Below, piece after piece: positions 1 to 44,839 of a DNA stretch of 64,000 bases. The number at the start of each line of letters is the position of its first letter. Positions within the stretch are counted from its first letter, which is position 1. This DNA comes from Eledone cirrhosa. Its lineage: Eukaryota. The translations under genes were made by a program, and so were the position numbers. Below the pieces are notes generated by a model that saw only the letters and a list, made by a program, of their open reading frames with translations, searched no databases and was not told the origin of the DNA. The stretch covers positions 11,098,001 through 11,162,000 of the forward strand of contig OZ024741.1 in the NCBI GenBank assembly GCA_964016885.1, in the 5' to 3' direction.

Positions 1-1876
1 AACCCACACAGATAGATGGAACGGGTGGACCAGAGCCATACGGACACCCAAAAACCACAACGAACAGAAGAAAATGATTGCACATGCGGTAGGGGCCAGC
101 ATAAAACCAACCCTTAAGGAACATATGTTCAAATTTATTGGAAAAACATATGCCCAAGAGGAAGGAGCAGCCATTGGTGTTAGCATTGCAGGCGACATAG
201 CTAACTTATTCATGGTATGGTGGGAGAGTTGACTTAAACTTAAACTTAAAGAACAATTAGAAGACCCCTTAACCCTGATAATGTACTCCCGCTACGTTGA
301 TGATATAAACATCGTAGTTAAGACACCGCCACTAGAGAACAGTCAGGAACTAGAGAAAAACACAATGCAAAGCATCCAGCAAATAGCTAACTCCATCCAC
401 CAGAGTATTAAAGTTACTATAGACTACCCAAGTAAACACCCCAACCATCGATTACCTGTACTAGACACAGAGCTCTGGTTAGATACCATTAATAACAAAA
501 AACAAATCCTCCATTCCCATTATGCCAAACCCATGACTTCCAAACATCTGATCCACCGAAACTTGGCTGTTTCGGGCCATACCAAAATCAACATACTGAT
601 TGCGGATTTGGTACGGGTGATGAGAAACGTGTCCCGCATGTGCAACCCCAAAGAACTAGAGAGACACATACAACACTTCATCCACCATATGCAGTTCTCT
701 GGTTACAATCAGAGAGATAAAATCAGAGTGTATAGAGGAGCCTGAACCAAATGGGAAAAAATGGTAAATAATGACACAAATGGGACCTGCCCTTTGTATA
801 GGAGCAAATTTTGGAATAGAATAGAAAGAACTAGGAATAAGGCTAATAGAATAAACTCATGGTATGATAGCAATAAATACCAGAGTGTAATGTTCATCGA
901 TACAACCCCTAGAGGTGAATTAGCTTACAAATTTAGAAAGGCCCTAGATAAACATAAACTCAATATTAAGATAGTAGAAAGACCAGGTACCTCCGTAAAA
1001 ACACTTATTAGCAAGACATACCCTTTTCAAAGACCCCCCTGTATAGATAAGAAATGTATAACCTGTAAAATAAGCCCCCATATTAATTGTAAAACTAGAA
1101 ATGTAGTGTATAGCATAAGATGTACTGAAGGACAATGTAGAGACAAAAATATAGTGTACATAGGTGAGACAGCTCGTAGTGTAGGGGAACGGATAAATGA
1201 ACACTGGCGAGACCTTCAAGATAGTAAAGAATCATCTGTACTCTACCAACATGCTAAAATAGAACATAAGGGTAAATTAGAGAACATAGAAATAAAAATA
1301 GAATCTACACACATAAAAGACGCAATGTTTAGACAAATCACAGAGACAATAAACATAAAAGAATTAAAACCAAAATTAAATAGAAAATATGAGTGGAACA
1401 GCAACATCACAACTTACAATTAAGGACAAAATGAAAACACACACACACATAGAACAAACAACCAACCGGTAACATGTAAATAAACAAATAAATAAACGAA
1501 TGTAAACACACACAGACACCCGGATTTGGCGCATGCGCAGACTGAGCACACAACACACACACAGAAACAAAATGGCGTAGGACAGAACAAAGGAGAGGCA
1601 CAAAAACAAAGAAAAGAATCCCCAGTCACTGAAGAGGTCACAGAATGTGTGACGAAAGAACTTTGACAATATATAAACAACTATCTGGTTGTGGAACCAA
1701 CCAACCAACCAGAAATTTATAAATTCCTAAATTTATAAATTTATTATAATAAATTGAAGTGAAAGCAACTGGTGCGTGTGTTTCTTATTGGCAACATGAC
1801 CCTCCCAAAGTATAACAATATCGGTTTCAACACACGATTTCAGATAAAGAATCTTGCTAAACAAATTCAGAAACGA
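1..1876 (+). mobile_element. Penelope-like element family A, 3' portion (RT C-half, CxxC linker, GIY-YIG EN, 3'UTR/pLTR); disrupted
   Basis: YSRYVDD RT motif, LPVLDTELW, CIDKKCITC, VVYSIRC...YIGETAR...RINEH GIY-YIG; in-frame stops near 230 and 743; same family as 58250-60507; ends in (TA)n. Confidence 0.92.
1625..1667 (+). ncRNA. Minimal type I hammerhead ribozyme (family A pLTR)
   Basis: GTCA-CTGAAGA-GGTCACA gaa TGTGTGAC-GAAA-GAAC-TT-TGAC; stem I GTCA/TGAC, very short stem III. Confidence 0.75.
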
Positions 1877-7082: not shown

Positions 7083-8476
7083 ATATATATATTTCGCCAC
7101 TACACTTTCGGGCCACATATGGGACCTCAAGGACAACAACATCACCTATGATCTCACTTGGAGATTACTGTCCAGAGCCAATTCTTACACGGGAGGACGC
7201 CGTCCGTGCAATTTATGCTCGGAGGAAACTTTACAAATGCTGTTTTCGACGGACCAACTCCTAAACAAGAAAGATGAACTGGTCACTGCATGTAAACATA
7301 GATTGCGTAGGACTTACCTCGCCCTCACACCCCATAATGACCCGGGGGGGGGGGGGGGGTAGACTAGGGCTATAACACCCCACTTGCCGATTTTGCAATG
7401 GGTAACCCCTGCTTGCCAAGGAAGACGTAAGATCTTCTTTGTATTCTTTTATCGCTTCCTTTATTTCCTTCCCCCCTCTCTCCTTAGTCCTTCTACCCCA
7501 GCTCTTCTCCTTTGTCGGCGTCTTTTCTCGACCACCCGAGGCTGCCCTTTGGCCCCATGTAGCCTTAGTACCCCCACCCCCCTCCCCTAGTCTATGATAG
7601 ATTTGGCGGACTCCGCCCTTTATAGCAGTTGGCTTAGACCCCGGATACTTGCCCCCTTTTTCCGACCGCTCCCACTATTCTCTGTGCCCTCTATATTTCT
7701 TAGTGGCACTTATGCCTTATTTTTTCGTTTCAGTATTTCTTGCTTCGCTTTTCTTCTGGGCGGGGTGGATTCTGAATTTATTTCTCCGTATTCTACCTTT
7801 ATTTCGTACGAACTTTCATGTAGCTTGTTTTAGATCTTTTAGAGTTAGCATTAGTATATATTTTTCTCGGGACTCAGAATTATTATCTCGTACAAGTTCA
7901 CTTTGCTGCACTGGGTCGTTGCTGGCCCGGGATGGAAACCTTTATTGTTTATTTCGTGGTAGTCTCTTTAGTATTTTGGCCCCTTTTGTTGACCTGTCAC
8001 CGTATCATTTACGTACTTATACCTCTTAAAAGGGTCCTTGCCTATCCCGTCCCACCTAGTTCTTTTACTTATTTCGTTATTTCTTTATTTATTTATTTCT
8101 TTACTTCTTTCTTTCTTTCTTTATTTTATTCTAGCCTAACAATAGCCTGAGACCTAGGTCGTAGAATTTAATTTACTTTACTTTTTTCTTTACACTTATT
8201 TGCTTTTCTTCACTCTCAGTATTTTTCCTTCCTATATATTTCTACCCCCCATTGTTCTACCTACCGTTCCGACTCCCCCCCCCCCTCCCCTGTATCTTCT
8301 TTGACCTCATGCCCAGCTGTAGCTGGCACTACCAACGCTTGATTGGGTCTACTCCACCCCTTCCACCCCCTCCCCTCTTTCTCCTACTGGCAGGTTTAGC
8401 CACCATCTCCCCTACTAATTTGCAACCACAGAATTACTACTGATTTTTGACAATCACTTTGACCATATATGGAATT

Positions 8477-8570
8477 ACCCCTTGAGAAGATCGGCTATTT
8501 AAATACCAGGATAAATTTTCATTTAGTCCAGAATTAGCCGTCGAAACGGCTTGAGCTCAGCTGTCGGGGT
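8477..8570 (+). ncRNA. Type I HHR, U3-A8 core variant (family B)
   Basis: ACCCC-TTGAGAA-GATCGGCTA...TAGCCGTC-GAAA-CGGCTTGAGCTCAGCTG-TC-GGGGT; predicted GUC cleavage after 8565. Confidence 0.85.
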
Positions 8571-8755
8571 CTTACTGGTTCCTATTACCCACTCTACTAC
8601 CTCAAGTATTGAGTACTTTGGTGCGTTATGGTCCACCTGGTTCCTTACCACATTTCCTTCGTTATCTAGCTCCTACTCCCGTAGTAGAGCACTTTCCGAC
8701 CCTACCACGCCGTATCCAGACTTTTCCGCTAAGCTCAATTCATTTCACCCGCACC

Positions 8756-10904
8756 ATGCGAAAACACAACATTGACTTCTCTACCAAGAACATCCCAATC
8801 CCACCGAAAAAATTTTACCTTCGGATGCTCACGCAAAAAATCGATCTATTTGCGAAAAGACTTAGATGGAGAACTTTTTTCTATGACAGATATTGCGACA
8901 ACCAAGACTTCGGCACCAAGGAGAGATTCGGATTTATTACCTACAAATCTCCGCCCCTGAACCCCTTGCTCGCACCCTTCGAGAATGACCTCTTCCAACT
9001 GGTCAAGAACATTAAATTTAAACCCAGACACAACCGATTCCTACAAAAACTCCGTAGCAACTTAACAGAGTATGATAACACAAATGACATCATGGTGCAT
9101 TCGGATAAAACTGGGAACCTATACTTTGTCAACCCTGACAGATACCACACACTGATCAGGAGCAGCCTAAACTCCACCTATAAAAAGGCCAACCACTCTT
9201 GCATCGAGGACATAAATCGAGATGGACAACAAATCACCTCCAGCCTCGGGGTCGCCGACCGCACGGAACCTCTAGACCCACGGACACCATACTTCACACT
9301 GAAGGACCATAAATCCGATTTTGACCGTAAACCCTCTATCAGGCTTATTAACCGACATAGGGAGAATCAGCAAAAAAATCCTAGACCGCGTGATACCAAA
9401 AGTCAAGCAACACACCCGACTTAGCCTATGGATCAACACCCAGGAAGTAATCTCCTGGTTCAGCAATATGGAGGATAAACGAGAAACTAAATTCATACAG
9501 TTCGACATAGAGAGCTACTATGCTTCAATCACCTTACCGCTACTTACTGCCGCCTTGGACTTCGCCGAAACACTTGTGCCCATCACCGACCAGGAAAGAA
9601 AAATCATCCTCCACGCCAGGAAGACAGTCTTACTCTTTGACGACTCTAAATGGATAAAAAGAGCTCCCGACTCACCCTTCGACGTCAGCATGGGCGCCAC
9701 GGACTCGGCGGAGGTCACAGACCTTATAGGATTATTCCTAATAGCCAAACTCACTGATATGTTTCCTGCATTCGGTGGTGGATTGTACCGTGATGATGGG
9801 CTCCTTACCCTTAAAGGGTACAACCCCAGTAGTACAGATCGGGTCCGGAAACAATTAATCAGATTCTTCCGCGACTGGGCATTTAAAATAACCCTACAAA
9901 CGTCCCTGACCCGAGTAAACTTCCTGGACGTGACCCTCGACCTCGAAAACGACCTGTACTACCCATACAGGAAACCTAATGACAATCTGCACTACATCCA
10001 CCGCCGATAAAACCATCCTAGGAACATCACAAACAACCTGGTCAAAAACATCTCCCTCCGCATATCCCGTTTGTCAGCTAATGAGCGGATATTCGATGAA
10101 CATGCGCCTTATTACAACCAGGCTCTCAAGCGGAGTGGTTTCCGGGAGGAAATATCCTACTGTTCAGCTCCCATTAGCGGAACCAGCAGGAGACACCGCC
10201 GCTCACGCAATGTAACATGGTTCAATCCTCCCCACAACGCAGAGGTGACAACTCCCATCGGGAAACTATTCTTTAGGCTCATTGAAAAACACTTCCCATT
10301 ACAACACCGCTACCACAACATAATTAACAAAAATACCATCAAACTCTCTTACAGCACTACACCAAACTTCGCACAAAACATCGTCTCCTCTAACAACAAA
10401 AAACTCAACCCCGATGGCAGAAATAACCTAAATAGCAGTGGAGAACCGACCAGGAGGTGTAACTGCCCGGATAGATCTATTTGCCCACTCGACAATAGAT
10501 GCAGAGACCGTAATGTGATCTACCAGTGCAACGTGAGGACGGATACCTCCAATAAAGCCTATATAGGACTTACCGCATGTGACTTCAAGACCCGGCTATA
10601 CCAACATAGACATACCTTCCGAAACCCGGCCCGGCGTCACGCCACTACACTTTCGGGCCACATATGGGACCTCAAGGACAACAACATCACCTATGATCTC
10701 ACTTGGAGATTACTGTCCAGAGCCAATTCTTACACGGGAGGACGCCGTCCGTGCAATTTATGCTCGGAGGAAACTTTACAAATGCTGTTTTCGACGGACC
10801 AACTCCTAAACAAGAAAGATGAACTGGTCACTGCATGTAAACATAGATTGCGTAGGACTTACCTCGCCCTCAAACCCCATAATGACCCGGGGGGGGGGGG
10901 GTAG
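8756..10904 (+). pseudogene. PLE RT-GIY-YIG ORF, copy 1 (frameshift ~9350, TAA at 10008)
   Basis: MRKHNIDFSTKNIPIP, SDKTGNLY, FDIESYYASI, SMGATDSAE, GLYRDDG, FLDVTLDL, CNC..CPL, VIYQC...YIGLT, CNLCSEE...CKH. Confidence 0.93.
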
Positions 10905-12022
10905 ACTAGGGCTATAACTCCCCACTTGCCGATTTTGCAATGGGTAACCCCTGCTTGCCAAGGAAGACGTAAGATCTTCTTTGTATTCTTTTATCGCTTC
11001 CTTTATTTCCTTCCCCCCTCTCTCCTTAGTCCTTCTACCCCAGCTCTTCTCCTTTGTCGGCGTCTTTTCTCGCCCACCCGAGGCTGCCCTTTGGCCCCAT
11101 GTAGCCTTAGTACCCCCCCCCCCCTCCCCTAGTCTATGATAGATTTGGCGGACTCCACCCTTTATAGCAGTTGGCTTAGACCCCGGATACTTGCCCCCTT
11201 TTTCCGACCGCTCCCACTATTCTCTGTGCCCTCTATATTTCTTAGTGGCACTTATGCCTTATTTTTTCGTTTCAGTATTTCTTGCTTCGCTTTTCTTCTG
11301 GGCGGGGTAGATTCTGAATTTATTTCTCCGTATTCTACCTTTATTTCGTACGAACTTTCATGTAGCTTGATTTAGATCTTTTAGAGTTAGCATTAGTATA
11401 TATTTTTCTCGGGACTCAGAATTATTATCTCGTACAAGTTCACTTTGCTGCACTGGGTCGTTGCTGGCCCGGGATGGAAACCTTTATTGTTTATTTCGTG
11501 GTAGTCTCTTTAGTATTTTGGCCCCTTTTGTTGACCCGTCACCGTATCATTTACGTACTTATACCTCTTAAAAGGGTCCTTGCCTATCCCGTCCCACCTA
11601 GTTCTTTTACTTATTTCGTTATTTCTTTATTTATTTATTTCTTTACTTCTTTCTTTCTTTCTTTATTTTATTCTAGCCTAACAATAGCCTGAGACCTAGG
11701 TCGTAGAATTTAATTTACTTTACTTTTTTCTTTACACTTATTTGCTTTTCTTCACTCTCAGTATTTTTCCTTCCTATATATTTCTACCCCCCATTGTTCT
11801 ACCTACCGTTCCGACTTCCTCCCCCTCCCCCTCCCCTGTATCTTCTTTGACCTCATGCCCAGCTGTAGCTGGCACTACCAACGCTTGATTGGGTCTACTC
11901 CACCCCCTCCACCCCCTCCCCTCTTTCTCCTACTGGCAGGTTTAGCCACCATCTCCCCTACTAATTAGCAACCACAGAATTACTACTGATTTTTGACAAT
12001 CACTTTGACCATATATGGAATT

Positions 12023-12116
12023 ACCCCTTGAGAAGATCGGCTATTTAAATACCAGGATAAATTTTCATTTAGTCCAGAATTAGCCGTCGAAACGGCTTGA
12101 GCTCAGCTGTCGGGGT
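12023..12116 (+). ncRNA. Type I HHR, U3-A8 variant (family B, copy 2)
   Basis: Identical to 8477-8570. Confidence 0.85.
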
Positions 12117-12301
12117 CTTACTGGTTCCTATTACCCACTCTACTACCTCAAGTATTGAGTACTTTGGTGCGTTATGGTCCACCTGGTTCCTTACCACATT
12201 TCCTTCGTTATCTAGCTCCTACTCCCGTAGTAGAGCACTTTCCGACCCTACCACGCCGTATCCAGACTTTTCCGCTAAGCTCAATTCATTTCACCCGCAC
12301 C

Positions 12302-14447
12302 ATGCGAAAACACAACATTGACTTCTCTACCAAGAACATCCCAATCCCACCGAAAAAATTTTACCTTCGGATGCTCACGCAAAAAATCGATCTATTTGCG
12401 AAAAGACTTAGATGGAGAACTTTTTTCTATGACAGATATTGCGACAACCAAGACTTCGGCACCAAGGAGAGATTCGGATTTATTACCTACAAATCTCCGC
12501 CCCTGAACCCCTTGCTCGCACCCTTCGAGAATGACCTCTTCCAACTGGTCAAGAACATTAAATTTAAACCCAGACACAACCGATTCCTACAAAAACTCCG
12601 TAGCAACTTAACAGAGTATGATAACACAAATGACATCATGGTGCATTCGGATAAAACTGGGAACCTATACTTTGTCAACCCTGACAGATACCACACACTG
12701 ATCAGGAGCAGCCTAAACTCCACCTATAAAAAGGCCAACCACTCTTGCATCGAGGACATAAATCGAGATGGACAACAAATCACCTCCAGCCTCGGGGTCG
12801 CCGACCGCACGGAACCTCTAGACCCACGGACACCATACTTCACACTGAAGGACCATAAATCCGATTTTGACCGTAAACCCTCTATCAGGCTTATTAACCG
12901 ACATAGGGAGAATCAGCAAAAAAATCCTAGACCGCGTGATACCAAAAGTCAAGCAACACACCCGACTTAGCCTATGGATCAACACCCAGGAAGTAATCTC
13001 CTGGTTCAGCAATATGGAGGATAAACGAGAAACTAAATTCATACAGTTCGACATAGAGAGCTACTATGCTTCAATCACCTTACCGCTACTTACTGCCGCC
13101 TTGGACTTCGCCGAAACACTTGTGCCCATCACCGACCAGGAAAGAAAAATCATCCTCCACGCCAGGAAGACAGTCTTACTCTTTGACGACTCTAAATGGA
13201 TAAAAAGAGCTCCCGACTCACCCTTCGACGTCAGCATGGGCGCCACGGACTCGGCGGAGGTCACAGACCTTATAGGATTATTCCTAATAGCCAAACTCAC
13301 TGATATGTTTCCTGCATTCGGTGGTGGATTGTACCGTGATGATGGGCTCCTTACCCTTAAAGGGTACAACCCCAGTAGTACAGATCGGGTCCGGAAACAA
13401 TTAATCAGATTCTTCCGCGACTGGGCATTTAAAATAACCCTACAAACGTCCCTGACCCGAGTAAACTTCCTGGACGTGACCCTCGACCTCGAAAACGACC
13501 TGTACTACCCATACAGGAAACCTAATGACAATCTGCACTACATCCACCGCCGATAAAACCATCCTAGGAACATCACAAACAACCTGGTCAAAAACATCTC
13601 CCTCCGCATATCCCGTTTGTCAGCTAATGAGCGGATATTCGATGAACATGCGCCTTATTACAACCAGGCTCTCAAGCGGAGTGGTTTCCGGGAGGAAATA
13701 TCCTACTGTTCAGCTCCCATTAGCGGAACCAGCAGGAGACACCGCCGCTCACGCAATGTAACATGGTTCAATCCTCCCCACAACGCAGAGGTGACAACTC
13801 CCATCGGGAAACTATTCTTTAGGCTCATTGAAAAACACTTCCCATTACAACACCGCTACCACAACATAATTAACAAAAATACCATCAAACTCTCTTACAG
13901 CACTACACCAAACTTCGCACAAAACATCGTCTCCTCTAACAACAAAAAACTCAACCCCGATGGCAGAAATAACCTAAATAGCAGTGGAGAACCGACCAGG
14001 AGGTGTAACTGCCCGGATAGATCTATTTGCCCACTCGACAATAGATGCAGAGACCGTAATGTGATCTACCAGTGCAACGTGAGGACGGATACCTCCAATA
14101 AAGCCTATATAGGACTTACCGCATGTGACTTCAAGACCCGGCTATACCAACATAGACATACCTTCCGAAACCCGGCCCGGCGTCACGCCACTACACTTTC
14201 GGGCCACATATGGGACCTCAAGGACAACAACATCACCTATGATCTCACTTGGAGATTACTGTCCAGAGCCAATTCTTACACGGGAGGACGCCGTCCGTGC
14301 AATTTATGCTCGGAGGAAACTTTACAAATGCTGTTTTCGACGGACCAACTCCTAAACAAGAAAGATGAACTGGTCACTGCATGTAAACATAGATTGCGTA
14401 GGACTTACCTCGCCCTCAAACCCCATAATGACCCGGGGGGGGGGTAG
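12302..14447 (+). pseudogene. PLE RT-GIY-YIG ORF, copy 2 with identical lesions
   Basis: Translations match copy 1 except terminal poly-Gly length. Confidence 0.93.
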
Positions 14448-15563
14448 ACTAGGGCTATAACTCCCCACTTGCCGATTTTGCAATGGGTAACCCCTGCTTG
14501 CCAAGGAAGACGTAAGATCTTCTTTGTATTCTTTTATCGCTTCCTTTATTTCCTTCCCCCCTCTCTCCTTAGTCCTTCTACCCCAGCTCTTCTCCTTTGT
14601 CGGCGTCTTTTCTCGCCCACCCGAGGCTGCCCTTTGGCCCCATGTAGCCTTAGTACCCCCCCCCCTCCCCTAGTCTATGATAGATTTGGCGGACTCCACC
14701 CTTTATAGCAGTTGGCTTAGACCCCGGATACTTGCCCCCTTTTTCCGACCGCTCCCACTATTCTCTGTGCCCTCTATATTTCTTAGTGGCACTTATGCCT
14801 TATTTTTTCGTTTCAGTATTTCTTGCTTCGCTTTTCTTCTGGGCGGGGTAGATTCTGAATTTATTTCTCCGTATTCTACCTTTATTTCGTACGAACTTTC
14901 ATGTAGCTTGATTTAGATCTTTTAGAGTTAGCATTAGTATATATTTTTCTCGGGACTCAGAATTATTATCTCGTACAAGTTCACTTTGCTGCACTGGGTC
15001 GTTGCTGGCCCGGGATGGAAACCTTTATTGTTTATTTCGTGGTAGTCTCTTTAGTATTTTGGCCCCTTTTGTTGACCCGTCACCGTATCATTTACGTACT
15101 TATACCTCTTAAAAGGGTCCTTGCCTATCCCGTCCCACCTAGTTCTTTTACTTATTTCGTTATTTCTTTATTTATTTATTTCTTTACTTCTTTCTTTCTT
15201 TCTTTATTTTATTCTAGCCTAACAATAGCCTGAGACCTAGGTCGTAGAATTTAATTTACTTTACTTTTTTCTTTACACTTATTTGCTTTTCTTCACTCTC
15301 AGTATTTTTCCTTCCTATATATTTCTACCCCCCATTGTTCTACCTACCGTTCCGACTTCCTCCCCCTCCCCCTCCCCTGTATCTTCTTTGACCTCATGCC
15401 CAGCTGTAGCTGGCACTACCAACGCTTGATTGGGTCTACTCCACCCCCTCCACCCTCTCCCCTCTTTCTCCTACTGGCAGGTTTAGCCACCATCTCCCCT
15501 ACTAATTAGCAACCACAGAATTACTACTGATTTTTGACAATCACTTTGACCATATATGGAATT

Positions 15564-15657
15564 ACCCCTTGAGAAGATCGGCTATTTAAATACCAGGATA
15601 AATTTTCATTTAGTCCAGAATTAGCCGTCGAAACGGCTTGAGCTCAGCTGTCGGGGT
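15564..15657 (+). ncRNA. Type I HHR, U3-A8 variant (family B, copy 3)
   Basis: Identical to 8477-8570. Confidence 0.85.
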
Positions 15658-15748
15658 CTTACTGGTTCCTATTACCCACTCTACTACCTCAAGTATTGAG
15701 TACTTTGGTGCGTTATGGTCCACCTGGTTCCTTACCACATTTCCTTCG

Positions 15749-15943
<195 letters not shown>

Positions 15944-18816: not shown

Positions 18817-21800
18817 GCCAAAGAGTTTCTGGAGAGTCACCACAAGAACATAAAGGTGAATCTCTACGACCTATACTTGGTAGAATGTAGTACAAAGGTA
18901 ATGTCCAGTTCAAAGGTTTATGTCCAGTTCAAAGGTATATGTCCAGTTTAAAGGTATATGTTCAGTTCAAAGGTAATGTCCAGTTCAAAGGTATATGTCT
19001 AGTTCAAAGTAATGTCCAGTTCAATGGTATATGTTCAGTTCAAAGGTAATGTCCAGTTCAAAGGTAATGTCCAGTTCAAAGGTATATGTCCAGTTCAAAG
19101 GTATATGTCCAGTTCAAAGGTAATGTCCAGTTCAAAGGTATATGTCCAGTTCAAAGGTATATGTCCAGTTCAAAGGTAATGTCCAGTTCAAAGGTATATG
19201 TCCAGTTCAAAGGTGATGTCCAGTTCAAAGGTATATGTCCAGTTCAAAGGTATATGTCCAGTTCAAAGGTAATGTCCAGTTCAAAGGTATATGTCCAGTT
19301 CAAAGGTATATGTCCAGTTCAAAGGTAATGTCCAGTTCAAAGGTATATGTCCAGTTCAAAGGTATATGTCCAGTTCAAAGGTAATGTCCAGTTCAATGGT
19401 ATATGTCCAATTCAAAGGTAATATCCAGTTCAAAGGTATATGTCCAGTTCAAAGGTATATGTCCAGTTCAAAGGTAATGTCCAGTTCAAAGGTATATGTC
19501 CAGTTCAAAGGTATATGTCCAGTTCAAATGTAATGTCCAGTTCAAAGGTAATGTCCAGTTCAATGGTATATGTCCAGTTCAAAGGTAATGTCCAGTTCAA
19601 AGGTATATGTCCAGTTCAAAGGTATATGTCCAGTTCAAAGGTAATGTCCAGTTCAAAGGTATATGTCCAGTTCAAAGGTAATGTCCAGTTCAAAGGTAAT
19701 GTCCAGTTTAAAGGTATATGTCCAGTTCAAAGGTATATGTCCAGTTCAAAGGTATATGTCCAGTTCAAAGGTAATGTCCAGTTCAAAGGTATATGTCCAG
19801 TTCAAAGGTAATGTCCAGTTCAAAAGTATATGTCCCGTTCAAAGGTAATGTCCAGTTCAATGGTATATGTCCAGTTCAAAGGTATATGTCCAGTTCAAAG
19901 GTATATGTCCAGTTCAAAGGTATATGTCCAGTTCAAAGGTAATGTCCAGTTCAAAGGTATATGTCCAGTTCAAAGGTATATGTCCAGTTCAAAGGTAATG
20001 TCCAGTTCAAAGGTATATGTCCAGTTCAAAGGTATATGTCCAGTTCAAAGGTAATGTCCAGTTCAATGGTATATGTCCAGTTCAAAGGCATATGTCCAGT
20101 TCAAAGGTAATGTCCAGTTCAATGGTATATGTCCAGTTCAAAGGTAATGTCCAGTTCAAAGGTATATGTCCAGTTCAAAGGTATATGTCCAGTTCAAAGG
20201 TAATGTCCAGTTCAAAGGTATATGTCCAGTTCAAAGGTATATGTCCAGTTCAAAAGTAATGTCCAGTTCAAAAGTGTATGTCCAGTTCAAAGGTATATGT
20301 CCAGTTCAAAAGTGTATGTCCAGTTCAAAGGTAATGTCCAGTTTAAAGGTATATGTCCAGTTCAAAGGTATATGTCCAGTTCAAAGGTATATGTCCAGTT
20401 CAAAGGTAATGTCCAGTTCAATGGTATATGTCCAGTTCAAAGGTAATGTCCAGTTCAAATGTATATGTCCAGTTCAAAGGTATATGTCCAATTCAAAGGT
20501 AATGTCCAGTTCAAATGTATATGTCCAGTTCAAACGTAATGTCCAGTTCAAAGGTATATGTCCAGTTCAAAGGTAATGTCCAGTTCAATGGTATATGTCC
20601 AGTTCAAAGGTAATGTCCAGTTCAAAGGTATATGTCCAGTTCAAAGGTATATGTCCAGTTCAAAGGTATATGTCCAGTTCAAAGGTAATGTCCAGTTCAA
20701 AGGTAATGTCCAGTTCAATGGTATATGTCCAGTTCAAAGGTAATGTCCAGTTCAAAGGTATATGTCCAGTTCAAAGGTATATGTCCAGTTCAAAGGTAAT
20801 GTCCAGTTCAAAGGTATATGTCCAGTTCAAAGGTAATGTCCAGTTCAAAGGTATATGTCCAGTTCAAAGGTAATGTCCAGTTTAAAGGTATATGTCCAGT
20901 TCAAAGGTAATGTCCAGTTCAAAGGTATATGTCCAGTTCAAAGGTAATGTCCAGTTCAATGGTATATGTCCAGTTCAAAGGTAATGTCCAGTTCAAAGGT
21001 ATATGCCCAGTTCAAAGGTATATGTCCAGTTCAAAGGTAATGTCCAGTTCAAAGGTATATGTCTAGTTCAAAGGTATATGTCCAGTTCAAAAGTAATGTC
21101 CAGTTCAAAAGTGTATGTCCAGTTCAAAGGTATATGTCCAGTTCAAAAGTGTATGTCCAGTTCAAAGGTAATGTCCAGTTTAAAGGTATATGTCCAGTTC
21201 AAAGGTATATGTCCAGTTCAAAGGTATATGTCCAGTTCAAAGGTAATGTCCAGTTCAATGGTATATGTCCAGTTCAAAGGTAATGTCCAGTTCAAAGGTA
21301 ATGTCCAGTTCAAAGGTATATGTCCAGTTCAAAGGTATATGTCCAGTTCAAAGGTATATGTCCAGTTCAAAGGTAATGTCCAGTTCAAAGGTATATGTCC
21401 AGTTCAAAGGTATATGTCCAGTTCAAATGTAATGTCCAGTTCAAAGGTAATGTCCAGTTCAATGGTATATGTCCAGTTCAAAGGTAATGTCCAGTTCAAA
21501 GGTATATGTCCAGTTCAAAGGTATATGTCCAGTTCAAAGGTAATGTCCAGTTCAAAGGTATATGTCCAGTTTAAAGGTATATGTCCAGTTCAAAGGTAAT
21601 GTCCAGTTCAAAGGTAATGTCCAGTTTAAAGGTATATGTCCAGTTCAAAGGTATATGTCCAGTTCAAAGGTATATGTCCAGTTCAAAGGTAATGTCCAGT
21701 TCAAAGGTGTATGTCCAGTTCAAAGGTAATGTCCAGTTCAAAAGTATATGTCCCGTTCAAAGGTAATGTCCAGTTCAATGGTATATGTCCAGTTCAAAGG

Positions 21801-24800
21801 TATATGTCCAGTTCAAAGGTATATGTCCAGTTCAAAGGTATATGTCCAGTTCAAAGGTAATGTCCAGTTCAAAGGTATATGTCCAGTTCAAAGGTATATG
21901 TCCAGTTCAAAGGTAATGTCCAGTTCAAAGGTATATGTCCAGTTCAAAGGTATATGTCCAGTTCAAAGGTAATGTCCAGTTCAATGGTATATGTCCAGTT
22001 CAAAGGTATATGTCCAGTTCAAAGGTAATGTCCAGTTCAATGGTATATGTCCAGTTCAAAGGTAATGTCCAGTTCAAAGGTATATGTCCAGTTCAAAGGT
22101 ATATGTCCAGTTCAAAGGTATATGTCCAGTTCAAAGGTATATGTCCAGTTCAAAGGTATATGTCCAGTTCAAAAGTAATGTCCAGTTCAAAAGTGTATGT
22201 CCAGTTCAAAGGTATATGTCCAGTTCAAAAGTGTATGTCCAGTTCAAAGGTAATGTCCAGTTTAAAGGTATATGTCCAGTTCAAAGGTATATGTCCAGTT
22301 CAAAGGTATATGTCCAGTTCAAAGGTAATGTCCAGTTCAATGGTATATGCCCAGTTCAAAGGTAATGTCCAGTTCAAAGGTATATGTCCAGTTCAAAGGT
22401 ATATGTCCAGTTCAAAGGTAATGTCCAGTTCAAAGGTATATGTCCAGTTCAAAGGTATATGTCCAGTTCAAAGGTAATGTCCAGTTCAAAGGTATATGTC
22501 CAGTTCAAAGGTATATGTCCAGTTCAAAAGTAATGTCCAGTTCAAAAGTGTATGTCCAGTTCAAAGGTATATGTCCAGTTCAAAAGTGTATGTCCAGTTC
22601 AAAGGTAATGTCCAGTTTAAAGGTATATGTCCAGTTCAAAGGTATATGTCCAGTTCAAAGGTATATGTCCAGTTCAAAGGTAATGTCCAGTTCAATGGTA
22701 TATGTCCAGTTCAAAGGTAATGTCCAGTTCAAAGGTATATGTCCAGTTCAAAGGTATATGTCCAGTTCAAAGGTAATGTCCAGTTCAAATGTATATGTCC
22801 AGTTCAAACGTAATGTCCAGTTCAAAGGTATATGTCCAGTTCAAAGGTAATGTCCAGTTCAATGGTATATGTCCAGTTCAAAGGTAATGTCCAGTTCAAA
22901 GGTATATGTCCAGTTCAAAGGTATATGTCCAGTTCAAAGGTATATGTCCAGTTCAAAGGTAATGTCCAGTTCAAAGGTAATGTCCAGTTCAATGGTATAT
23001 GTCCAGTTCAAAGGTAATGTCCAGTTCAAAGGTATATGTCCAGTTCAAATGTATATGTCCAGTTCAAAGGTAATGTCCAGTTCAAAGGTATATGTCCAGT
23101 TCAAAGGTAATGTCCAGTTCAAAGGTATATGTCCAGTTCAAAGGTAATGTCCAGTTTAAAGGTATATGTCCAGTTCAAAGGTATATGTCCAATTCAAAGG
23201 TAATGTCCAGTTCAAAGATATATGTCCAGTTCAAAGGTAATGTCCAGTTCAAAGGTATATGCCCAGTTCAAAGGTATATGTCCAGTTCAAAGGTAATGTC
23301 CAGTTCAAAGGTATTTGTCCAGTTCAAAGGTATATGTCCAGTTCAAAAGTAATGTCCAGTTCAAAAGTGTATGTCCAGTTCAAGGGTATATGTCCGGTTC
23401 AAAAGTGTATGTCCAGTTCAAAGGTAATGTCCAGTTTAAAGGTATATGTCCAGTTCAAAGGTATATGTCCAGTTCAAAGGTATATGTCCAGTTCAAAGGT
23501 AATGTCCAGTTCAATGGTATATGTCCAGTTCAAAGGTAATGTCCAGTTCAAAGGTAATGTCCAGTTCAAAGGTATATGTCCAGTTCAAAGGTATATGTCC
23601 AGTTCAAAGGTAATGTCCAGTTCAAAGGTATATGTCCAGTTCAAAGGTATATGTCCAGTTCAAAGGTAATGTCCAGTTCAAAGGTATATGTCCAGTTCAA
23701 AGGTATATGTCCAGTTCAAATGTAATGTCCAGTTCAGAGGTAATGTCCAGTTCAATGGTATATGTCCAGTTCAAAGGTAATGTCCAGTTCAAAGGTATAT
23801 GTCCAGTTCAAAGGTATATGTCCAGTTCAAAGGTAATGTCCAGTTCAAAGGTATATGTCCAGTTTAAAGGTATATGTCCAGTTCAAAGGTAATGTCCAGT
23901 TCAAAGGTAATGTCCAGTTTAAAGGTATATGTCCAGTTCAAAGGTATATGTCCAGTTCAAAGGTATATGTCCAGTTCAAAGGTATATGTCCAGTTCAAAG
24001 GTAATGTCCAGTTCAAAGGTGTATATCCAGTTCAAAGGTAATGTCCAGTTCAAAAGTATATGTCCCGTTCAAAGGTAATGTCCAGTTCAATGGTATATGT
24101 CCAGTTCAAAGGTATATGTCCAGTTCAAAGGTATATGTCCAGTTCAAAGGTATATGTCCAGTTCAAAGGTAATGTCCAGTTCAAAGGTATATGTCCAGTT
24201 CAAAGGTATATGTCCAGTTCAAAGGTAATGTCCAGTTCAAAGGTATATGTCCAGTTTAAAGGTATATGTCCAGTTCAAAGGTAATGTCCAGTTCAAAGGT
24301 AATGTCCAGTTTAAAGGTATATGTCCAGTTCAAAGGTATATGTCCAGTTCAAAGGTATATGTCCAGTTCAAAGGTATATGTCCAGTTCAAAGGTAATGTC
24401 CAGTTCAAAGGTGTATATCCAGTTCAAAGGTAATGTCCAGTTCAAAAGTATATGTCCCGTTCAAAGGTAATGTCCAGTTCAATGGTATATGTCCAGTTCA
24501 AAGGTATATGTCCAGTTCAAAGGTATATGTCCAGTTCAAAGGTATATGTCCAGTTCAAAGGTAATGTCCAGTTCAAAGGTATATGTCCAGTTCAAAGGTA
24601 TATGTCCAGTTCAACGTTAATGTCCAGTTCAAAGGTATATGTCCAGTTCAAAGGTATATGTCCAGTTCAAAGGTAATGTCCAGTTCAATGGTATATGTCC
24701 AGTTCAAAGGTATATGTCCAGTTCAAAGGTAATGTCCAGTTCAATGGTATATGTCCAGTTCAAAGGTAATGTCCAGTTCAAAGGTATATGTCCAGTTCAA

Positions 24801-26990
24801 AGGTATATGTCCAGTTCAAAGGTAATGTCCAGTTCAAAGGTATATGTCCAGTTCAAATGTATATGTCCAGTTCAAAAGTAATGTCCAGTTCAAAAGTGTA
24901 TGTCCAGTTCAAAGGTATATGTCCAGTTCAAAAGTGTATGTCCAGTTCAAAGGTAATGTCCAGTTTAAAGGTATATGTCCAGTTCAAAGGTATATGTCCA
25001 GTTCAAAGGTATATGTCCAGTTCAAAGGTAATGTCCAGTTCAATGGTATATGCCCAGTTCAAAGGTAATGTCCAGTTCAAAGGTATATGTCCAGTTCAAA
25101 GGTATATGTCCAGTTCAAAGGTAATGTCCAGTTCAAATGTATATGTCCAGTTCAAACGTAATGTCCAGTTCAAAGGTATATGTCCAGTTCAAAGGTAATG
25201 TCCAGTTCAATGGTATATGTCCAGTTCAAAGGTAATGTCCAGTTCAAAGGTATATGTCCAGTTCAAAGGTATATGTCCAGTTCAAAGGTATATGTCCAGT
25301 TCAAAGGTAATGTCCAGTTCAAAGGTAATGTCCAGTTCAATGGTATATGTCCAGTTCAAAGGTATATGTCCAGTTCAAAGGTATATGTCCAGTTCAAAGG
25401 TAATGTCCAGTTCAAAGGTATATGTCCAGTTCAAAGGTAATGTCCAGTTCAAAGGTATATGTCCAGTTCAAAGGTAATGTCCAGTTTAAAGGTATATGTC
25501 CAGTTCAAAGGTATATGTCCAGTTCAAAGGTAATGTCCAGTTCAAAGGTATATGTCCAGTTCAAAGGTAATGTCCAGTTCAATGGTATATGTCCAGTTCA
25601 AAGGTAATGTCCAGTTCAAAGGTATATGCCCAGTTCAAAGGTATATGTCCAGTTCAAAGGTAATGTCCAGTTCAAAGGTATATGTCCAGTTCAAAGGTAT
25701 ATGTCCAGTTCAAAAGTAATGTCCAGTTCAAAAGTGTATGTCCAGTTCAAAGGTATATGTCCAGTTCAAAAGTGTATGTCCAGTTCAAAGGTAATGTCCA
25801 GTTTAAAGGTATATGTCCAGTTCAAAGGTATATGTCCAGTTCAAAGGTATATGTCCAGTTCAAAGGTAATGTCCAGTTCAATGGTATATGTCCAGTTCAA
25901 AGGTAATGTCCAGTTCAAAGGTAATGTCCAGTTCAAAGGTATATGTCCAGTTCAAAGGTATATGTCCAGTTCAAAGGTATATGTCCAGTTCAAAGGTAAT
26001 GTCCAGTTCAAAGGTAATGTCCAGTTCAAAGGTAATGTCCAGTTCAAAGGTATATGTCCAGTTCAAAGGTATATGTCCAGTTCAAAGGTATATGTCCAGT
26101 TCAAAGGTATATGTCCAGTTCAAAGGTAATGTCCAGTTCAAAGGTATATGTCCAGTTCAAAGGTATATGTACAGTTCAAAAGTAATGTCCAGTTCAAAAG
26201 TGTATGTCCAGTTCAAAGGTATATGTCCAGTTCAAAAGTGTATGTCCAGTTCAAAAGTAATGTCCAGTTTAAAGGTATATGTCCAGTTCAAAGGTATATG
26301 TCCAGTTGGAAGCCAGCATAGTATATTTTTATTTGCATTACTCTATGATTGATAAGTTTTAAATGTTGTCAAATATGGTTGAGAAAGTGGGGGAACTGAA
26401 ATTTGTGAGCTTATCTCTGGATTTTTCCCAAAATGTTTCCCACCTTTGACTAATTATTTGTTTGCTAAATTATTTTATCTGTGAAAGATATCCAAATCAC
26501 TGTTATTTCTTTATTATTTTCTCAGAAGTAGTTATCTATTTTAACAGAAAGTTCTCAATATCCGTAACCTGGCCCCTTTTTCTTGGCTGAAGCAGTTCTA
26601 GGTTTGATAGACTATCAGTAAATAGAAAACCATTTTCCCAGAGCAATTCCATAGCTGAATCTATGGATAATGTAACTCCCCCCCATTCTTCCTCACATAT
26701 AGTGTAATCCTGATGTAATCTCAAGTTCATATCTCTATAATTATTTTTGAAGGACCAAGTAGCTCCACAGTCCACACCCTTGTCTGAATGTCACCCGTCT
26801 GTGTAGCAGACCCAGCTGTTAAAAGATATTGACTGTTATAGTGTTATGGAGTTCTTTTGCTTCCCCTTTTGTCTTTTTCATCACTATTTTAAACGATTTT
26901 AATAGTTCTATCTATGGAGGAAGTCAAGTATTATGCTGTTTTTTTTTTTGCATTTAAACTGAGCAGTTAGCAATTTGCGTTTCCATGATT
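18817..26990 (-). pseudogene. Decayed I-group (I/Nimb/Loa-like) LINE ORF2 C-terminus (RNase H + zinc knuckle) split by a 7.4-kb satellite
   Basis: Minus strand: VCYTDG*HSDKGVDCGA...FLFTDSLSNL (RNase H), QRWETFWEK, ILCWLPTGH at the right satellite edge, resuming PLYYILPSIGRRDSPLCSCGDSPETLWH at the left edge. Confidence 0.8.
18893..26308. repeat. Satellite of mixed 18/19-bp units TGTCCAGTTCAAAGGTA(T)A, ~400 copies, with ~2.3-kb higher-order structure
   Basis: Direct reading; rare variants CAAACGTAAT (~20531, 22805, 25153) and ATGCCCAG (21003, 23259, 25626) recur at ~2.3-kb spacing. Confidence 0.97.
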
Positions 26991-34028: not shown

Positions 34029-34237
34029 TAAAACCTATAAAACAATGGAAGTTCATAAAAAACCTTTAGAGCCAGTTTTAAACTACTCGATATTTAAATT
34101 ACTCGATATTTAGGATAGTAGAGTATGGCTATGTTAGAAAGAGTCTGGGCCCGACGGCTGAGCTCTTGCCGTTTCAACAGCTAGTTCCTGAGTCTGGAAA
34201 TAATGAATAAAAAATCTGTGTATCGAAATATGGCTCA

Positions 34238-36637: not shown

Positions 36638-36718
<81 letters not shown>

Positions 36719-36721
<3 letters not shown>

Positions 36722-36879
36722 CGAAGGAAATGTGGTAAGGAACCAGGTGGACCATAACGCACCAAAGTACTCAATACTTAGGGTAGTAGAGTGGGTAATA
36801 GGAACGAGTAGGACCCCGACGGCTGTCCAGAATTAGCCGTCGAAACGGCTTGAGCTCAACCGTCGGGGTCCTACTCGTT

Positions 36880-36884
<5 letters not shown>
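36719..36884. mobile_element. Fold-back pLTR fragment of family B in (TA)n
   Basis: 36719-36824 is the reverse complement of ~8560-8664; 36825-36884 matches 8526-8585. Confidence 0.9.
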
Positions 36885-41822: not shown

Positions 41823-44800
41823 TCAGACCACAAGTTAGTGAGCTGCATGGTCAACCTTGACAGAACGCATAGACAGGGTTACTGGAAGCTCAACTTGTCC
41901 TTACCGGCAAGTAAGGCTTACAGGGACCGGATTAGCACTTTAGTTAAGGAGCGGTTGACGGGCGCCATCGTCAACAGCAGGTGGTGGGGATCTCTCAAAA
42001 GAGAGATTAGAGTAGTCTCTATAGAATTTAGTAAGGAGTTAGCCTCAAATAGAAATAGGAAGGAAAGGGAGTTGGTAGATAGTGTAGAAGAGGCAATTAG
42101 AAGCGGCGACGTGGCCAGAGTGCTAGCGTCGAGAACGGCCCTGGGCCAGTTCTTCGACGCGAAACACGAAGGCTGCATCGTCCGAAGCAAAATACGTGCT
42201 CTGGGAAACGAGGGGACCAAAGCTGTTAGCTGGGCCGGCGTGACAGAAGCCAAAAGAGGGAGCAGATCCACTATCCGGTCTTTGCGAGACCAGGATGGAC
42301 GGGTGATCCTTGAACCTAAGCAGATGTGCGAGGCTTTTCAAAAGCACTTTGCCGAATTGTTCGGAAGGTGCGGGGAGCCGGTTGGGGAAGTGGACTTCGG
42401 TCCATACCTCGACGGCCTGCCGCGTCTCTCGGACAGGGAGGCGAAGTCCTGCGAGGAGCCGATTTCAGCCGCTGAGATAGAGGACGTGCTGAGCCAATGC
42501 GGCAAACGCAAATCCCCGGGTCTCGATGGTCTTCCATACGAACTATATCTAGCTATGCCGGACTTGTTCCCCGATCTCCTCGAGGCGGTCTACTGCAACT
42601 GGCAACAGAACGGAAGAATTCCCTGTACTGTGACCAAGGGCGTAGTCACGCTAGTGAGGAAGGACGAGAACAAGGTGGACGATATAAATAATTTCAGGCC
42701 CATAACTCTGCTAAATACAGAGTTACAGATTTTGGCCAAGATGCTAGCAAAGAGGTTGGCGCTTGTCGTGGGCAACCTGGTGGGAGATGCGCAGACATGT
42801 GCTATCCCGTCCAGGTTCATCCACGACAACCTCCACCTTATGCGATACATCATAGAGAGGGTTGGGAACGAACCCGGCTTTGGTGGGGCCCTTATCAACT
42901 TGGATCAATCTAAGGCGTTCGATAGGGTCGACCATGGTTACCTGGATGCGGTGCTAGCGGCGGCAGGCTTCGGACCTGTTTTCAGGGGCTGGATCAATGC
43001 CATGCACAGCAGCCGCATCTGCTCTAGGGTCAAGGTGAACGGCTACCTCTCGGAGCCGTTCGAAATCGCGCGGTCCATCCGACAGGGGTGCCCTCTCTCC
43101 TCCCTTCTGTATGTAATGACTCTAGAGCCACTGCTGCGGAAGTTGGAGTTGTTGCAGGGCATCCCGTTGGAACCGGGATTGCGGAAAGCGGTGTCGGCCT
43201 ACGCCGACGACGTAACAGTAATGGTGTCGACGGCCTCGGAAATCGGGGCGATCGGCACCTTACTGGAGGAGTACGAAAGGTTTACAGGGGCTAAGCTGAA
43301 CCGGGACAAGTCAATCGGTCTGCAACTCGGTACGTGCAGGGGCAGATCGATGCCCTCCGATGGCGTCGTCGGGCGCTGGACGGAGGGCCCGGTGAAGTTG
43401 CTCGGGGTCTGGTTCGGACCAGACCTCCAGGTGGAGAAGAACTGGGGTGAGGTAACGAACAGGGTGTTTGCACTGACCCAGAAGTGGGCCGAGTGCAAAC
43501 TGTCCCTGAAAGGTCGGGCGGAGGTGGCGAACACTTATATAGCGTCCGTCATCTACTACCACCTGACCGTGGTGCCTTGCCCAAGGGAAACGCTCGCCAA
43601 AATGGAGCGCGCACTCTTCCAATTCCTTTGGAAGAAGCGGGCTCCTATGGGGAGGAGATCCATTTGCTGTCAACACCCTTCGAAAGGAGGGCTGGGGATG
43701 CCGTGGCTAATGATACCTAAACACGCATTAAGGCTTCTGCACCTCCAGGTATTCCTCTCCGGTCAACCGGTGTGGGCCCCGTTTGTGAGGCGAGCCTTTC
43801 CCAGACTCGTCTCACTCACCGAGCTGCAATCCTGGGTCAAGCAAAGACCGAGAAAACTGGGCGCCTGGCACACCGAGGCGCCCACGGCTCTCTGGCAGGC
43901 GGACCCGGCTGTCAGTGGAGAATCCACCTCGTCATTCTATAGAGGGCTGGTGGTTAGCAGGTGCGACGACGCCCTCGGAGAAGCCCTAGGTATAGAGGAA
44001 GACGAACTGGCCAACCTGTTCGGTAGGAAATTCAGCCCGGGACCCATGGATAACTTCCAGAGGTCCCTGGCCTGGCAGTGCTACAGAAGGGCTCTGCCCG
44101 TTCGAGAAAGGCTCTACAGACACGGGCACCCGCGTAGGGACCCCTCGAAAAAGATCTGTCCCAGATGCGTGTGCGACGAGGAAACCGTTGCACACGCATT
44201 GGTACACTGCTCGGGCATTGCCGATCTGTGGGGCTATGTCGAACAACTGCTATCAAGGGTGGGACCGATCCGGTTGACCACCGAGTCTATTGTAACGATC
44301 AAGCCGCTTCCTCTCTTCAAAAACGAAGGAGAAGCGGTGTTTCTGTGCGTAATAGCCATGGCGAAAGAGGTTGTATGGTGGACGCGTCTGAAAGGACTGA
44401 GGTCAGACACCTTTCTCTCTGGCCAACAACTGGTCCGTTTCTTCCGATATCATTTCGGAAGAAGGGTCAGGATGGAGAGAGAGGTGCTGCACCCCAGCCG
44501 TTTTTATGAAAGATGGGTGAAAGTGGCGAGAATGGCCCTTCTGAATGGGCCTTCACTCTACATCAGACTATAGGTGAGGAAGATGAAAGACCAAGGGAGC
44601 ACCCCTTCTCTGTGCTCCTGAGGAGAAGGTTTTCACACTTTTTTTCGGGGGGGGGGGGGCGACCCCCAAGGCGCCTCCTCTCTATTGAGGATTTTGTTAT
44701 AAATTTTATTTTGTTATATTTTATTTTATTTTTATATTTTGTTATTGCCTCCTCCTTATTGAGGACGCCTTGTTATGTAAACTTCCCCCATTGTACTTGT

Positions 44801-44837
44801 CCCACTTTTTGATGCCCTGGTGGCAAATAAAAAGAAA

Positions 44838-44839
<2 letters not shown>
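41823..44839 (+). mobile_element. Tx1-like (L1 superfamily) LINE, 5'-truncated, inserted in (TATC)n
   Basis: Starts at the EN end SDHKLV..GYWKLN; both flanks (TATC)n; AATAAA at the 3' end. Confidence 0.9.
41838..44573 (+). CDS. Tx1-like ORF2 RT + zf-RVT (open 911 aa, EN truncated)
   Basis: KSPGLDGLP, FRPITLLN, LDQSKAFDRV, IRQGCPLS, YADDV, LLGVWF, GGLGMP, CPRC...ETVAHALVHC. Confidence 0.9.
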   Translation: MSCMVNLDRTHRQGYWKLNLSLPASKAYRDRISTLVKERLTGAIVNSRWWGSLKREIRVVSIEFSKELASNRNRKERELVDSVEEAIRSGDVARVLASRTALGQFFDAKHEGCIVRSKIRALGNEGTKAVSWAGVTEAKRGSRSTIRSLRDQDGRVILEPKQMCEAFQKHFAELFGRCGEPVGEVDFGPYLDGLPRLSDREAKSCEEPISAAEIEDVLSQCGKRKSPGLDGLPYELYLAMPDLFPDLLEAVYCNWQQNGRIPCTVTKGVVTLVRKDENKVDDINNFRPITLLNTELQILAKMLAKRLALVVGNLVGDAQTCAIPSRFIHDNLHLMRYIIERVGNEPGFGGALINLDQSKAFDRVDHGYLDAVLAAAGFGPVFRGWINAMHSSRICSRVKVNGYLSEPFEIARSIRQGCPLSSLLYVMTLEPLLRKLELLQGIPLEPGLRKAVSAYADDVTVMVSTASEIGAIGTLLEEYERFTGAKLNRDKSIGLQLGTCRGRSMPSDGVVGRWTEGPVKLLGVWFGPDLQVEKNWGEVTNRVFALTQKWAECKLSLKGRAEVANTYIASVIYYHLTVVPCPRETLAKMERALFQFLWKKRAPMGRRSICCQHPSKGGLGMPWLMIPKHALRLLHLQVFLSGQPVWAPFVRRAFPRLVSLTELQSWVKQRPRKLGAWHTEAPTALWQADPAVSGESTSSFYRGLVVSRCDDALGEALGIEEDELANLFGRKFSPGPMDNFQRSLAWQCYRRALPVRERLYRHGHPRRDPSKKICPRCVCDEETVAHALVHCSGIADLWGYVEQLLSRVGPIRLTTESIVTIKPLPLFKNEGEAVFLCVIAMAKEVVWWTRLKGLRSDTFLSGQQLVRFFRYHFGRRVRMEREVLHPSRFYERWVKVARMALLNGPSLYIRL

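What the first reader, a model, noticed from the sequence alone, without database searches (positions are those of the whole stretch)
8477..8570. U3-A8 compensatory core variant HHR in the family B pLTR
Seen: the core reads UUGAGAA instead of CUGANGA, with stem I ACCCC/GGGGT, a long stem II insertion, a near-palindromic stem III and a GUC site ~190 nt upstream of the ORF ATG (8756). Established: C3-G8 is a tertiary Watson-Crick pair and U3-A8 swaps can remain active. Inference: the double change points to selection for function, cleavage would define unit-length RNA ends in the tandem array, and standard descriptors would miss it. The 36825-36870 copy has a different stem III 3' strand (CTCAACCG vs CTCAGCTG) that still pairs.
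Basis: partly seen in the sequence, partly recalled or inferred. Interest (0 to 1): 0.7.

Follow-up and report, generated by a model that had tools for sequence, protein, structure and literature searches.

The report
Jumping-gene ribozyme with fossilised cut ends
This is a known variant of a self-cutting RNA inside a very abundant animal jumping gene; dozens of DNA copies elsewhere in the genome stop exactly at its predicted cut site, so it likely does cut in living cells.

Summary
Real type I hammerhead with a U3-A8 core (8477-8570), in the pseudo-LTR of a young Hydra-clade Penelope-like element. U3-A8 is already published, including in Penelope-like elements (PMC4209133, PMC3088659), and this scan met it before on other DNA (e1-9510204, e1-9582960, e1-9840520). 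The 'compensatory' reading is only partly supported. A8 is nearly fixed (50 G8 among ~5,950 copies), but 1,551 copies carry an unpaired C3·A8, and one such group forms its own amplified clade. The 36825 copy lacks the catalytic half.

Short head-to-head insertions record the 5' ends of the RNA template. Both arms end exactly at G8566, the first base after the predicted cut, at 78 loci, against 0 and 1 at the neighbouring bases. Both arms end at A8525 with an extra untemplated G at 353 loci, which points to a capped start site inside loop II. The transcript's leading ribozyme is therefore likely a half, and only the downstream copy is complete. Cut-site ends also carry the haplotype linked to C3·A8 (15 of 17). 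Cleavage is inferred from DNA; no RNA or in vitro data.

The parts
8477..8570 (+). Type I hammerhead ribozyme with U3-A8 core (copy 1 of 3)
8482..8488 (+). Core U3 U4 G5 A6 G7 A8 A9; position 7 varies (G/A/C/U) between subfamilies, position 8 is almost always A
8523..8528 (+). Initiator-like TTAGTC in loop II; inferred capped transcription start at A8525
   Evidence: TTAGT kept in the sister family
8546..8564 (+). Stem III with conserved central palindrome GAGCTC; can fold alone or pair between two copies
8565..8566 (+). Predicted cleavage site C17|G; cDNA arms end at G8566 genome-wide
8585..8668 (+). 'Tail' between the two recurrent 3' ends (about 8585 and 8665-8668), inferred reverse-transcription start sites
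   Evidence: 71 of 78 inverted arms start at 8585, 89 of 100 forward arms end at 8668
8756..10915 (+). Hydra-clade PLE RT-endonuclease gene, broken here by frameshift and stop; intact 717-719 aa frames exist elsewhere
7095..15755 (+). Head-to-tail array of about 2.4 units (unit about 3,546 bp) between TA runs
12023..12116 (+). Identical hammerhead, copy 2
15564..15657 (+). Identical hammerhead, copy 3
36715..36884 (.). Short head-to-head insertion of the same family (arms about 8558-8668 and 8526-8585); 3' half of the ribozyme only
34096..34187 (-). Decayed 3' half from an older related family (73% identity)

Best explanation
This is a type I hammerhead with a U3-A8 core in the terminal repeat of a Hydra-clade Penelope-like retrotransposon, and it likely cuts its own RNA after C8565 in vivo, on transcripts that likely start at a capped site inside the ribozyme's own loop II. 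Shown: the fold, the element, and two precise classes of copy ends (A8525 plus an extra G; G8566). Inferred: RNA polymerase II starts at A8525, so the transcript's first ribozyme is only a 3' half and the complete ribozyme lies in the next repeat downstream. The element's reverse transcriptase starts at about 8585 and 8668 on both ends of a cut (TA)n target and copies to the template's 5' end. A capped end gives the very abundant short palindromes; a ribozyme-made end gives the rarer 8566 class; an uncut or re-ligated circular template gives full copies and arrays.
For: (1) Cut-site ends: both arms ending exactly at 8566 with >= 2 untemplated filler bases, 78 loci; the same test at 8565 gave 0 and at 8567 gave 1; at 8563, 5 loci, all stem III collapses whose arms run further. 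In the first 100 of 640 short junctions, 21 have both arms at 8566 with filler and 13 are blunt (hand count). The sister family shows such ends more weakly. (2) Capped start: both arms at A8525 with an extra G where the template has T, 353 loci; extra A on both arms in 2 of the first 50 control loci; an untemplated G is read as a copied cap in L1 work (PMC9341517, passages). (3) Selection on structure: position 7 is free while A8 is fixed; one stem II pair changes G-C to A-U in 7 of 22 rows; core, GAAA and stems persist while loop II diverges. (4) Two internal RT start sites and the tail match PMC11167929 (parts 1-2 read). (5) Array units are near-identical within an array (0-4 differences) and differ between arrays and copies (14-57).
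Against: No RNA or in vitro data. The 3-8 pair is not strictly kept: C3·A8 in 1,551 copies and a small U3·G8 subfamily. Most recorded template ends are capped, and every complete copy was copied across the cut site. The blunt junction class can also arise from a 2-base microhomology at C8565-G8566. In the half-ribozyme fold G8566-G8569 are predicted paired (0.72-0.94), so a structural stop cannot be excluded. The fold is lost in a longer context. Only one stem pair covaries cleanly, from one phylogenetic event; the count of double-changed pairs does not beat shuffles (476 of 500). In the Anolis element, RNA-seq showed no ends at the cut site and cleavage was dispensable in vitro (PMC11167929).
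Confidence: 0.75

Rival explanations
1. The ribozyme is inactive or nearly so; ends at 8566 are a reverse-transcriptase stop at the foot of a hairpin or after the G run, or a minor start site at G8567 whose cap G mimics G8566.
For: C3·A8 lineages amplified. G8566-G8569 are predicted paired. Cap-derived G is nearly obligatory at 8525, so a start at 8567 would look the same. PLE hammerheads are slow in vitro (PMC4209133).
Against: The peak is one base wide and falls on the site predicted beforehand (78: 0: 1). A stop at the foot of stem III would be expected nearer 8565 (inference). A start at 8566 would add a fifth G, seen on only 18 of 100 listed arms (hand count). 8567 lies in a GG context with no initiator (sequence). 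The core is conserved against a variable loop.
Confidence: 0.15
2. Cleavage happens mainly in a dimer: a complete ribozyme pairs through the stem III palindrome with a half-ribozyme leader or another transcript and cuts that partner. C3·A8 RNAs would then be cut in trans by U3-A8 relatives.
For: The dimer is predicted about 16 kcal/mol more stable than two monomers, and full plus half also pairs. GAGCTC is conserved across families. Dimer cleavage is the published model for PLE hammerheads (PMC4209133; PMC6765202 section 11 part 2). It explains the cut ends on the C3-linked haplotype.
Against: Stem III here has 5-6 pairs and folds as a monomer (0.74-0.75), unlike minimal PLE hammerheads. No direct evidence. 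This refines the best explanation more than it excludes it.
Confidence: 0.35
3. One reading: the U3-A8 double change is held by strict selection on the 3-8 pair, and cleavage sets the ends of unit-length RNAs.
For: All 26 published Hydra-clade rows have CUGAnGA (found with a canonical descriptor) and 3 of 3 full-length metagenome relatives, which carry one and the same motif, have CUGAGGA, so a double change happened on this lineage. About three quarters of copies, the youngest subfamily and the sister family are U3-A8.
Against: C3·A8 forms a supported clade (99/98) of hundreds of copies (351; 1,551 in all). No double change within the family. The commonest 5' end is capped.
Confidence: 0.2

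Closest known systems
U3-A8 minimal hammerheads in the pLTRs of Cercyon PLEs, Schistosoma mansoni (Cervera and De la Pena 2014, PMC4209133; parts 1-2 of 4 read, supplements not seen)
   Same: Type I hammerhead in a PLE terminal repeat; U3-A8 instead of C3-G8 (about 1,300 hits there); long stem II, short stem I, G10.1-C11.1, palindromic stem III region.
   Different: Here stem III has 5-6 pairs and loop II 37 nt; the host is a Hydra-clade element; there are C3·A8 and U3·G8 subfamilies; genomic copy ends mark the cut site and a capped start inside loop II.
Hydra clade of C-terminal-endonuclease PLEs (Craig et al. 2021, PMC8557442; section 11, passages and supplement part 2 read)
   Same: RWK-type and DKT motifs, CxCX5C linker, single ORF, (TA)n targets, tandem and inverted copies with a tail, hammerhead in the pLTR.
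   Different: All 26 listed Hydra rows have canonical cores. This unit is longer (3.5 kb against generally < 3 kb), reads RWR, and has more than 34,000 ribozyme-half copies.
Natural U3-A8 hammerheads (Perreault et al. 2011, PMC3088659; section 8 and passages read)
   Same: Same core covariation, described as active in vitro.
   Different: The section read mentions no amplified C3·A8 lineage and no retroelement copy-end evidence.
Poseidon PAc of Anolis (Frangieh et al. 2024, PMC11167929; parts 1-2 of 4 read)
   Same: Two internal RT start sites defining the tail; AT-rich targets; hammerhead near the ORF start.
   Different: Canonical core; protein-assisted; no RNA-seq ends found at the cut site. 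Here cut-site ends are seen in DNA.
Penelope of Drosophila virilis, internal promoter (Schostak et al. 2008, PMC2377424; section 14 read)
   Same: TATA-less internal promoter in the pLTR.
   Different: There an intron overlaps helix I (PMC4209133); here the inferred start lies inside loop II and halves the ribozyme.

Membership tests
Type I hammerhead ribozyme | Three stems around the core, open at stem I | tested here: met
Type I hammerhead ribozyme | Core U4 G5 A6 N7, A9, G12 A13 A14, A15.1-U16.1, H17 | tested here: met
   U4, G5, A6, A9, A13, A14, A15.1, U16.1 and C17 invariant, G12 nearly so, in 22 rows. The 5' core letters were fixed by the search patterns; the 3' ones were not.
Type I hammerhead ribozyme | Watson-Crick pair between positions 3 and 8 | tested here: met
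   U3-A8 in this copy; not met by 1,551 C3·A8 family copies
Type I hammerhead ribozyme | Self-cleavage after position 17 | tested here: inconclusive
   Indirect support from cDNA ends at 8566; no assay possible
Type I hammerhead ribozyme | Tertiary contact between stems/loops I and II | not tested
   No model built
Minimal PLE hammerhead (Cervera 2014) | Absent or 1-2 bp stem III, dimer needed | tested here: not met
   5-6 bp stem III folds as a monomer; palindrome still present
Hydra-clade PLE | RWK motif, DKT for DKG, CxCX5C linker, C-terminal GIY-YIG-type domain | tested here: met
   RWR, DKT, CNCPDRSIC and VIY...YIG read against PMC8557442 section 11; Pfam gave no hit
Hydra-clade PLE | Insertion into (TA)n, pLTR, tail, inverted 5'-truncated copies | tested here: met
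Hydra-clade PLE | Placement in an RT phylogeny with named Hydra elements | not tested
   Published sequences were seen in the supplement but not brought into a tree
Non-LTR retrozyme | Short non-coding tandem unit | tested here: not met
   3.5-kb unit with a 717-719 aa ORF in 6 of 10 sampled ORF copies

The most novel reading that the evidence does not exclude
The genome holds a fossil 5'-end map of a Penelope-like RNA. The promoter sits inside the hammerhead, so each transcript begins with a substrate-only half and ends with a full ribozyme. Cleavage at C17 happens in the germline, even for a lineage whose 3-8 core pair is a C·A mismatch, either because that core still works or because ribozymes cut each other through the stem III palindrome. 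The ribozyme would act as a switch between short palindromic insertions and full-length or circular templates.
Probability: 0.4. Interest if true: 0.78.

Novelty: new variant of a known kind. Interest (0 to 1): 0.6.

Why it matters
The core swap itself is ordinary by now. What matters is that the function of hammerheads in Penelope-like elements is described as unclear (PMC8557442), was proposed without in vivo evidence (PMC4209133), and left no RNA-seq trace in the one reconstituted element (PMC11167929). Here tens of thousands of insertions act as a natural 5'-RACE. They give single-base evidence for cutting in vivo, for a start site inside the ribozyme, and for natural U-A, C·A and U·G cores that can be compared at the bench. 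The same junction count can be run on any PLE-rich genome.

Tried and rejected
- DNA search of the own genome gave nothing because common words are skipped; patterns were used instead.
- No RNA holder was listed. Contigs of 4 runs of unrecorded kind repeated the subfamily variation and cannot show ends. The two other-organism runs gave 3 and 4 contigs, mostly identical to the window, and were not used.
- Register shift (CUGAGA without N7, then an extra A): rejected for U3 copies because position 7 takes all four bases. It is not excluded for C3 copies, where G7 stands in 95 of the first 100 (hand count).
- A start at A8521 with a motif-ten-like element: dropped. Ends peak at 8525, 8526 and 8529, and the match misses the bases that PMC1538597 calls important (passages).
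- An intron in loop II: there is an acceptor-like AG but no GT donor in the loop.
- A-to-G editing as the source of the window copy's lesions: not seen; 11 of 19 private changes are single-base deletions and may be assembly errors.
- The older family related to 34096-34187: no recognisable 5' half in 30 of 189 matches read.
- Papers not held: Lunse et al. on PLE hammerhead variants, Hammann 2012, Przybilski and Hammann 2007, Nelson and Uhlenbeck 2008. These may already describe C3·A8 behaviour.
- Literature searches listed no paper on C3·A8 lineages or on PLE copy ends at the cut site; the library is partial and most hits were seen only as listings.

Full report
1. The motif. The sequence at 8477-8570 reads as a type I hammerhead: stem I 8477-8481/8566-8570, core UUGAGAA 8482-8488, stem II 8489-8497/8535-8542 with one bulge and a 37-nt loop, GAAA 8543-8546, stem III, and GUC with C17 at 8565. 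It is the minimum-energy fold of that stretch and survives in 8440-8668, but not in 8400-8760. Its energy is not unusual (z 0.37). A descriptor shaped on it gives 3 hits in the window and 0 in 300 resampled windows. Rfam showed no hammerhead among 150 listed of 155 matches. The three copies are identical and belong to a 2.4-unit array, 7095-15755.

2. The element. The downstream gene carries RWR, DKT and CNCPDRSIC motifs and a C-terminal VIY...YIG domain. Copies insert into (TA)n and form tandem and inverted arrangements. These are the diagnostic features of the Hydra clade of Penelope-like elements (PMC8557442 section 11); no tree with named members was made. The window's gene is broken identically in both units, while 6 of 10 sampled ORF copies are open for 717-719 codons. 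The genome is 3.0 Gb; the organism was not identified.

3. Is U3-A8 new? No. It is reported in nature and as active in vitro (PMC3088659 section 8), and with about 1,300 hits in Schistosoma, found through the Cercyon PLE (PMC4209133). Earlier notes of this scan met it too. Within the Hydra clade, all 26 published rows are canonical (from a canonical descriptor), and 3 full-length metagenome relatives at 36% protein identity, out of 8 loci, carry one identical CUGAGGA motif. A double change therefore happened on this lineage (inference).

4. Is it compensatory? Only in part. The 5'-half pattern has 5,940 matches. 1,609 lack U3, and 1,551 are C3·A8. Only 50 have G8, of which 9 are C3-G8 and most are U3·G8. 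Position 7 takes all four bases by subfamily, which fixes the register for U3 copies and shows that A8 is held. In a tree of 41 rows (102 extracted, 56 with alignable upstream sequence including the window copy, young copies thinned; midpoint root), 15 C3·A8 rows and one G3 row form a clade at 99/98, with longer end branches than the window's subfamily. The second C3 subfamily was not in the tree. A diverged sister family is U3-U7-A8, so U3-A8 is the likelier ancestral state (inference). On 22 hand-picked rows the 3-8 pair is U-A 16, U·G 3, C·A 3, with no double change; one stem II pair changes G-C to A-U in 7 rows; 91% of cells pair. That a C·A mismatch should cripple the core is recalled, not read: the relevant papers were not held.

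5. Most copies are halves. A 25-mer of the 3' half has 34,639 exact matches. Of the first 100 of 20,678 tail-anchored copies (all on one contig), 55 end at 8516-8531 and only 7 reach further upstream; 78 have an inverted arm, 71 of these starting at 8585; 89 forward arms end at 8668. This matches the two internal RT starts and the tail of PMC11167929. The 36715-36884 insertion is of this kind, so it lacks the catalytic 5' half, and its stem III difference is private to one arm.

6. A capped start inside loop II. Arm ends peak at 8525, 8526 and 8529. A G stands before A8525, where the template has T, in 3,045 copies; in 20 of 30 read it does not come from an identified opposite arm. Both arms carry that G at 353 loci. 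The non-G control gave 142 loci, nearly all with C, which one subfamily has natively; A on both arms was seen in 2 of the first 50. An untemplated G is interpreted as a copied cap in L1 insertions (PMC9341517). The site is TTAGTC, TCAGTC in one subfamily (compare TCAKTY, PMC1538597), and TTAGT persists in the sister family's otherwise diverged loop. A polymerase II start at A8525 is inferred.

7. Ends at the cut site. A search for short junctions gave 640 matches; in the first 100, 21 have both arms ending at G8566 with untemplated filler, 13 are blunt and ambiguous, and 13 have one arm there (hand count). Genome-wide, with at least two filler bases, both arms end at 8566 in 78 loci, at 8565 in 0 and at 8567 in 1. 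A fifth G appears on 18 of 100 arms, so this end does not look capped. G8566 is the first base of the predicted 3' product. Among 25 sister-family junctions several end at the equivalent base, less cleanly. A structural stop, or a capped start at 8567, remain possible but would have to coincide with the predicted site.

8. The mismatch lineage. A tail variant at 8659 separates two sister subfamilies that share the CCTACT tail: with C there, 82 of 85 full copies are U3; with T, 93 of the first 100 of 351 are C3. Of 17 junction loci read from the first 30 of 68 matches, 15 carry T, 1 carries C and 1 is unclear, against a baseline of 18 to 3; one of the 17, the unclear one, may end at 8565. RNAs of the C3·A8 lineage therefore seem to have been cut as often as their share predicts. 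Either that core works, or relatives cut them in trans: the stem III palindrome favours dimers (-61.9 against 2 x -22.7 kcal/mol), the published model for PLE hammerheads. The haplotype link is statistical, and other U3 subfamilies with the same tail cannot be fully excluded.

9. Mechanism. Transcripts likely begin at A8525 with a half-ribozyme and run through the gene into a complete ribozyme. The enzyme primes at about 8585 and 8668 from both ends of a (TA)n break. Run-off at the cap gives the common mini-palindromes; run-off at the cut gives the rarer class (2 against 55 of 100); uncut or re-ligated templates give full copies. Arrays whose units share private changes (19 in the window, 12 in a 4.5-unit array) fit rolling-circle copying, but also tandem source elements or later duplication.

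10. Verdict. Observation partly confirmed; interpretation partly supported. The core variant is known. The copy-end evidence for in vivo cleavage, the start site inside the ribozyme and the amplified mismatch lineage were not found in the searches listed, with key papers and the Cervera supplements unseen. New variant of a known kind; interest 0.6.

Noticed in passing
window 1625-1667 (+): Canonical minimal hammerhead (CUGAAGA) downstream of a different, broken PLE-like RT-endonuclease gene at about 200-1420.
   Followed up: no
window 28803 (+), 36451 (+), 36311 (-), 57723 (-), 62102 (-): Further CUGAnGA hammerhead-like candidates from a relaxed descriptor; the pair at 36311/36451 flanks a perfect inverted repeat, like another head-to-head PLE insertion.
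   Followed up: no
G000:C1:91470001-91496000 (L259-L261): A 4.5-unit array with four open ORFs, followed by more than 60 tandem copies of a 55-bp piece of the gene before the inverted arm, as if reverse transcription had slipped repeatedly.
   Followed up: no
L108, L113, L122; three more: A few C3-G8 copies in the C3·A8 background; two share flanking features and may be a small canonical lineage.
   Followed up: partly
L092, L112, L114, L115, L119, L123, L126, L128: Small older subfamily with a U3·G8 wobble core and its own loop II sequence.
   Followed up: partly
window 41847-51183: Non-LTR retrotransposon ORFs with RVT_1 and zf-RVT domains; several satellite arrays at about 19000-25000 and 53600-56500.
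   Followed up: no
window 8756-10915 and 12302-14460: Both units share 19 private changes, 11 of them single-base deletions; real shared lesions or assembly errors.
   Followed up: partly
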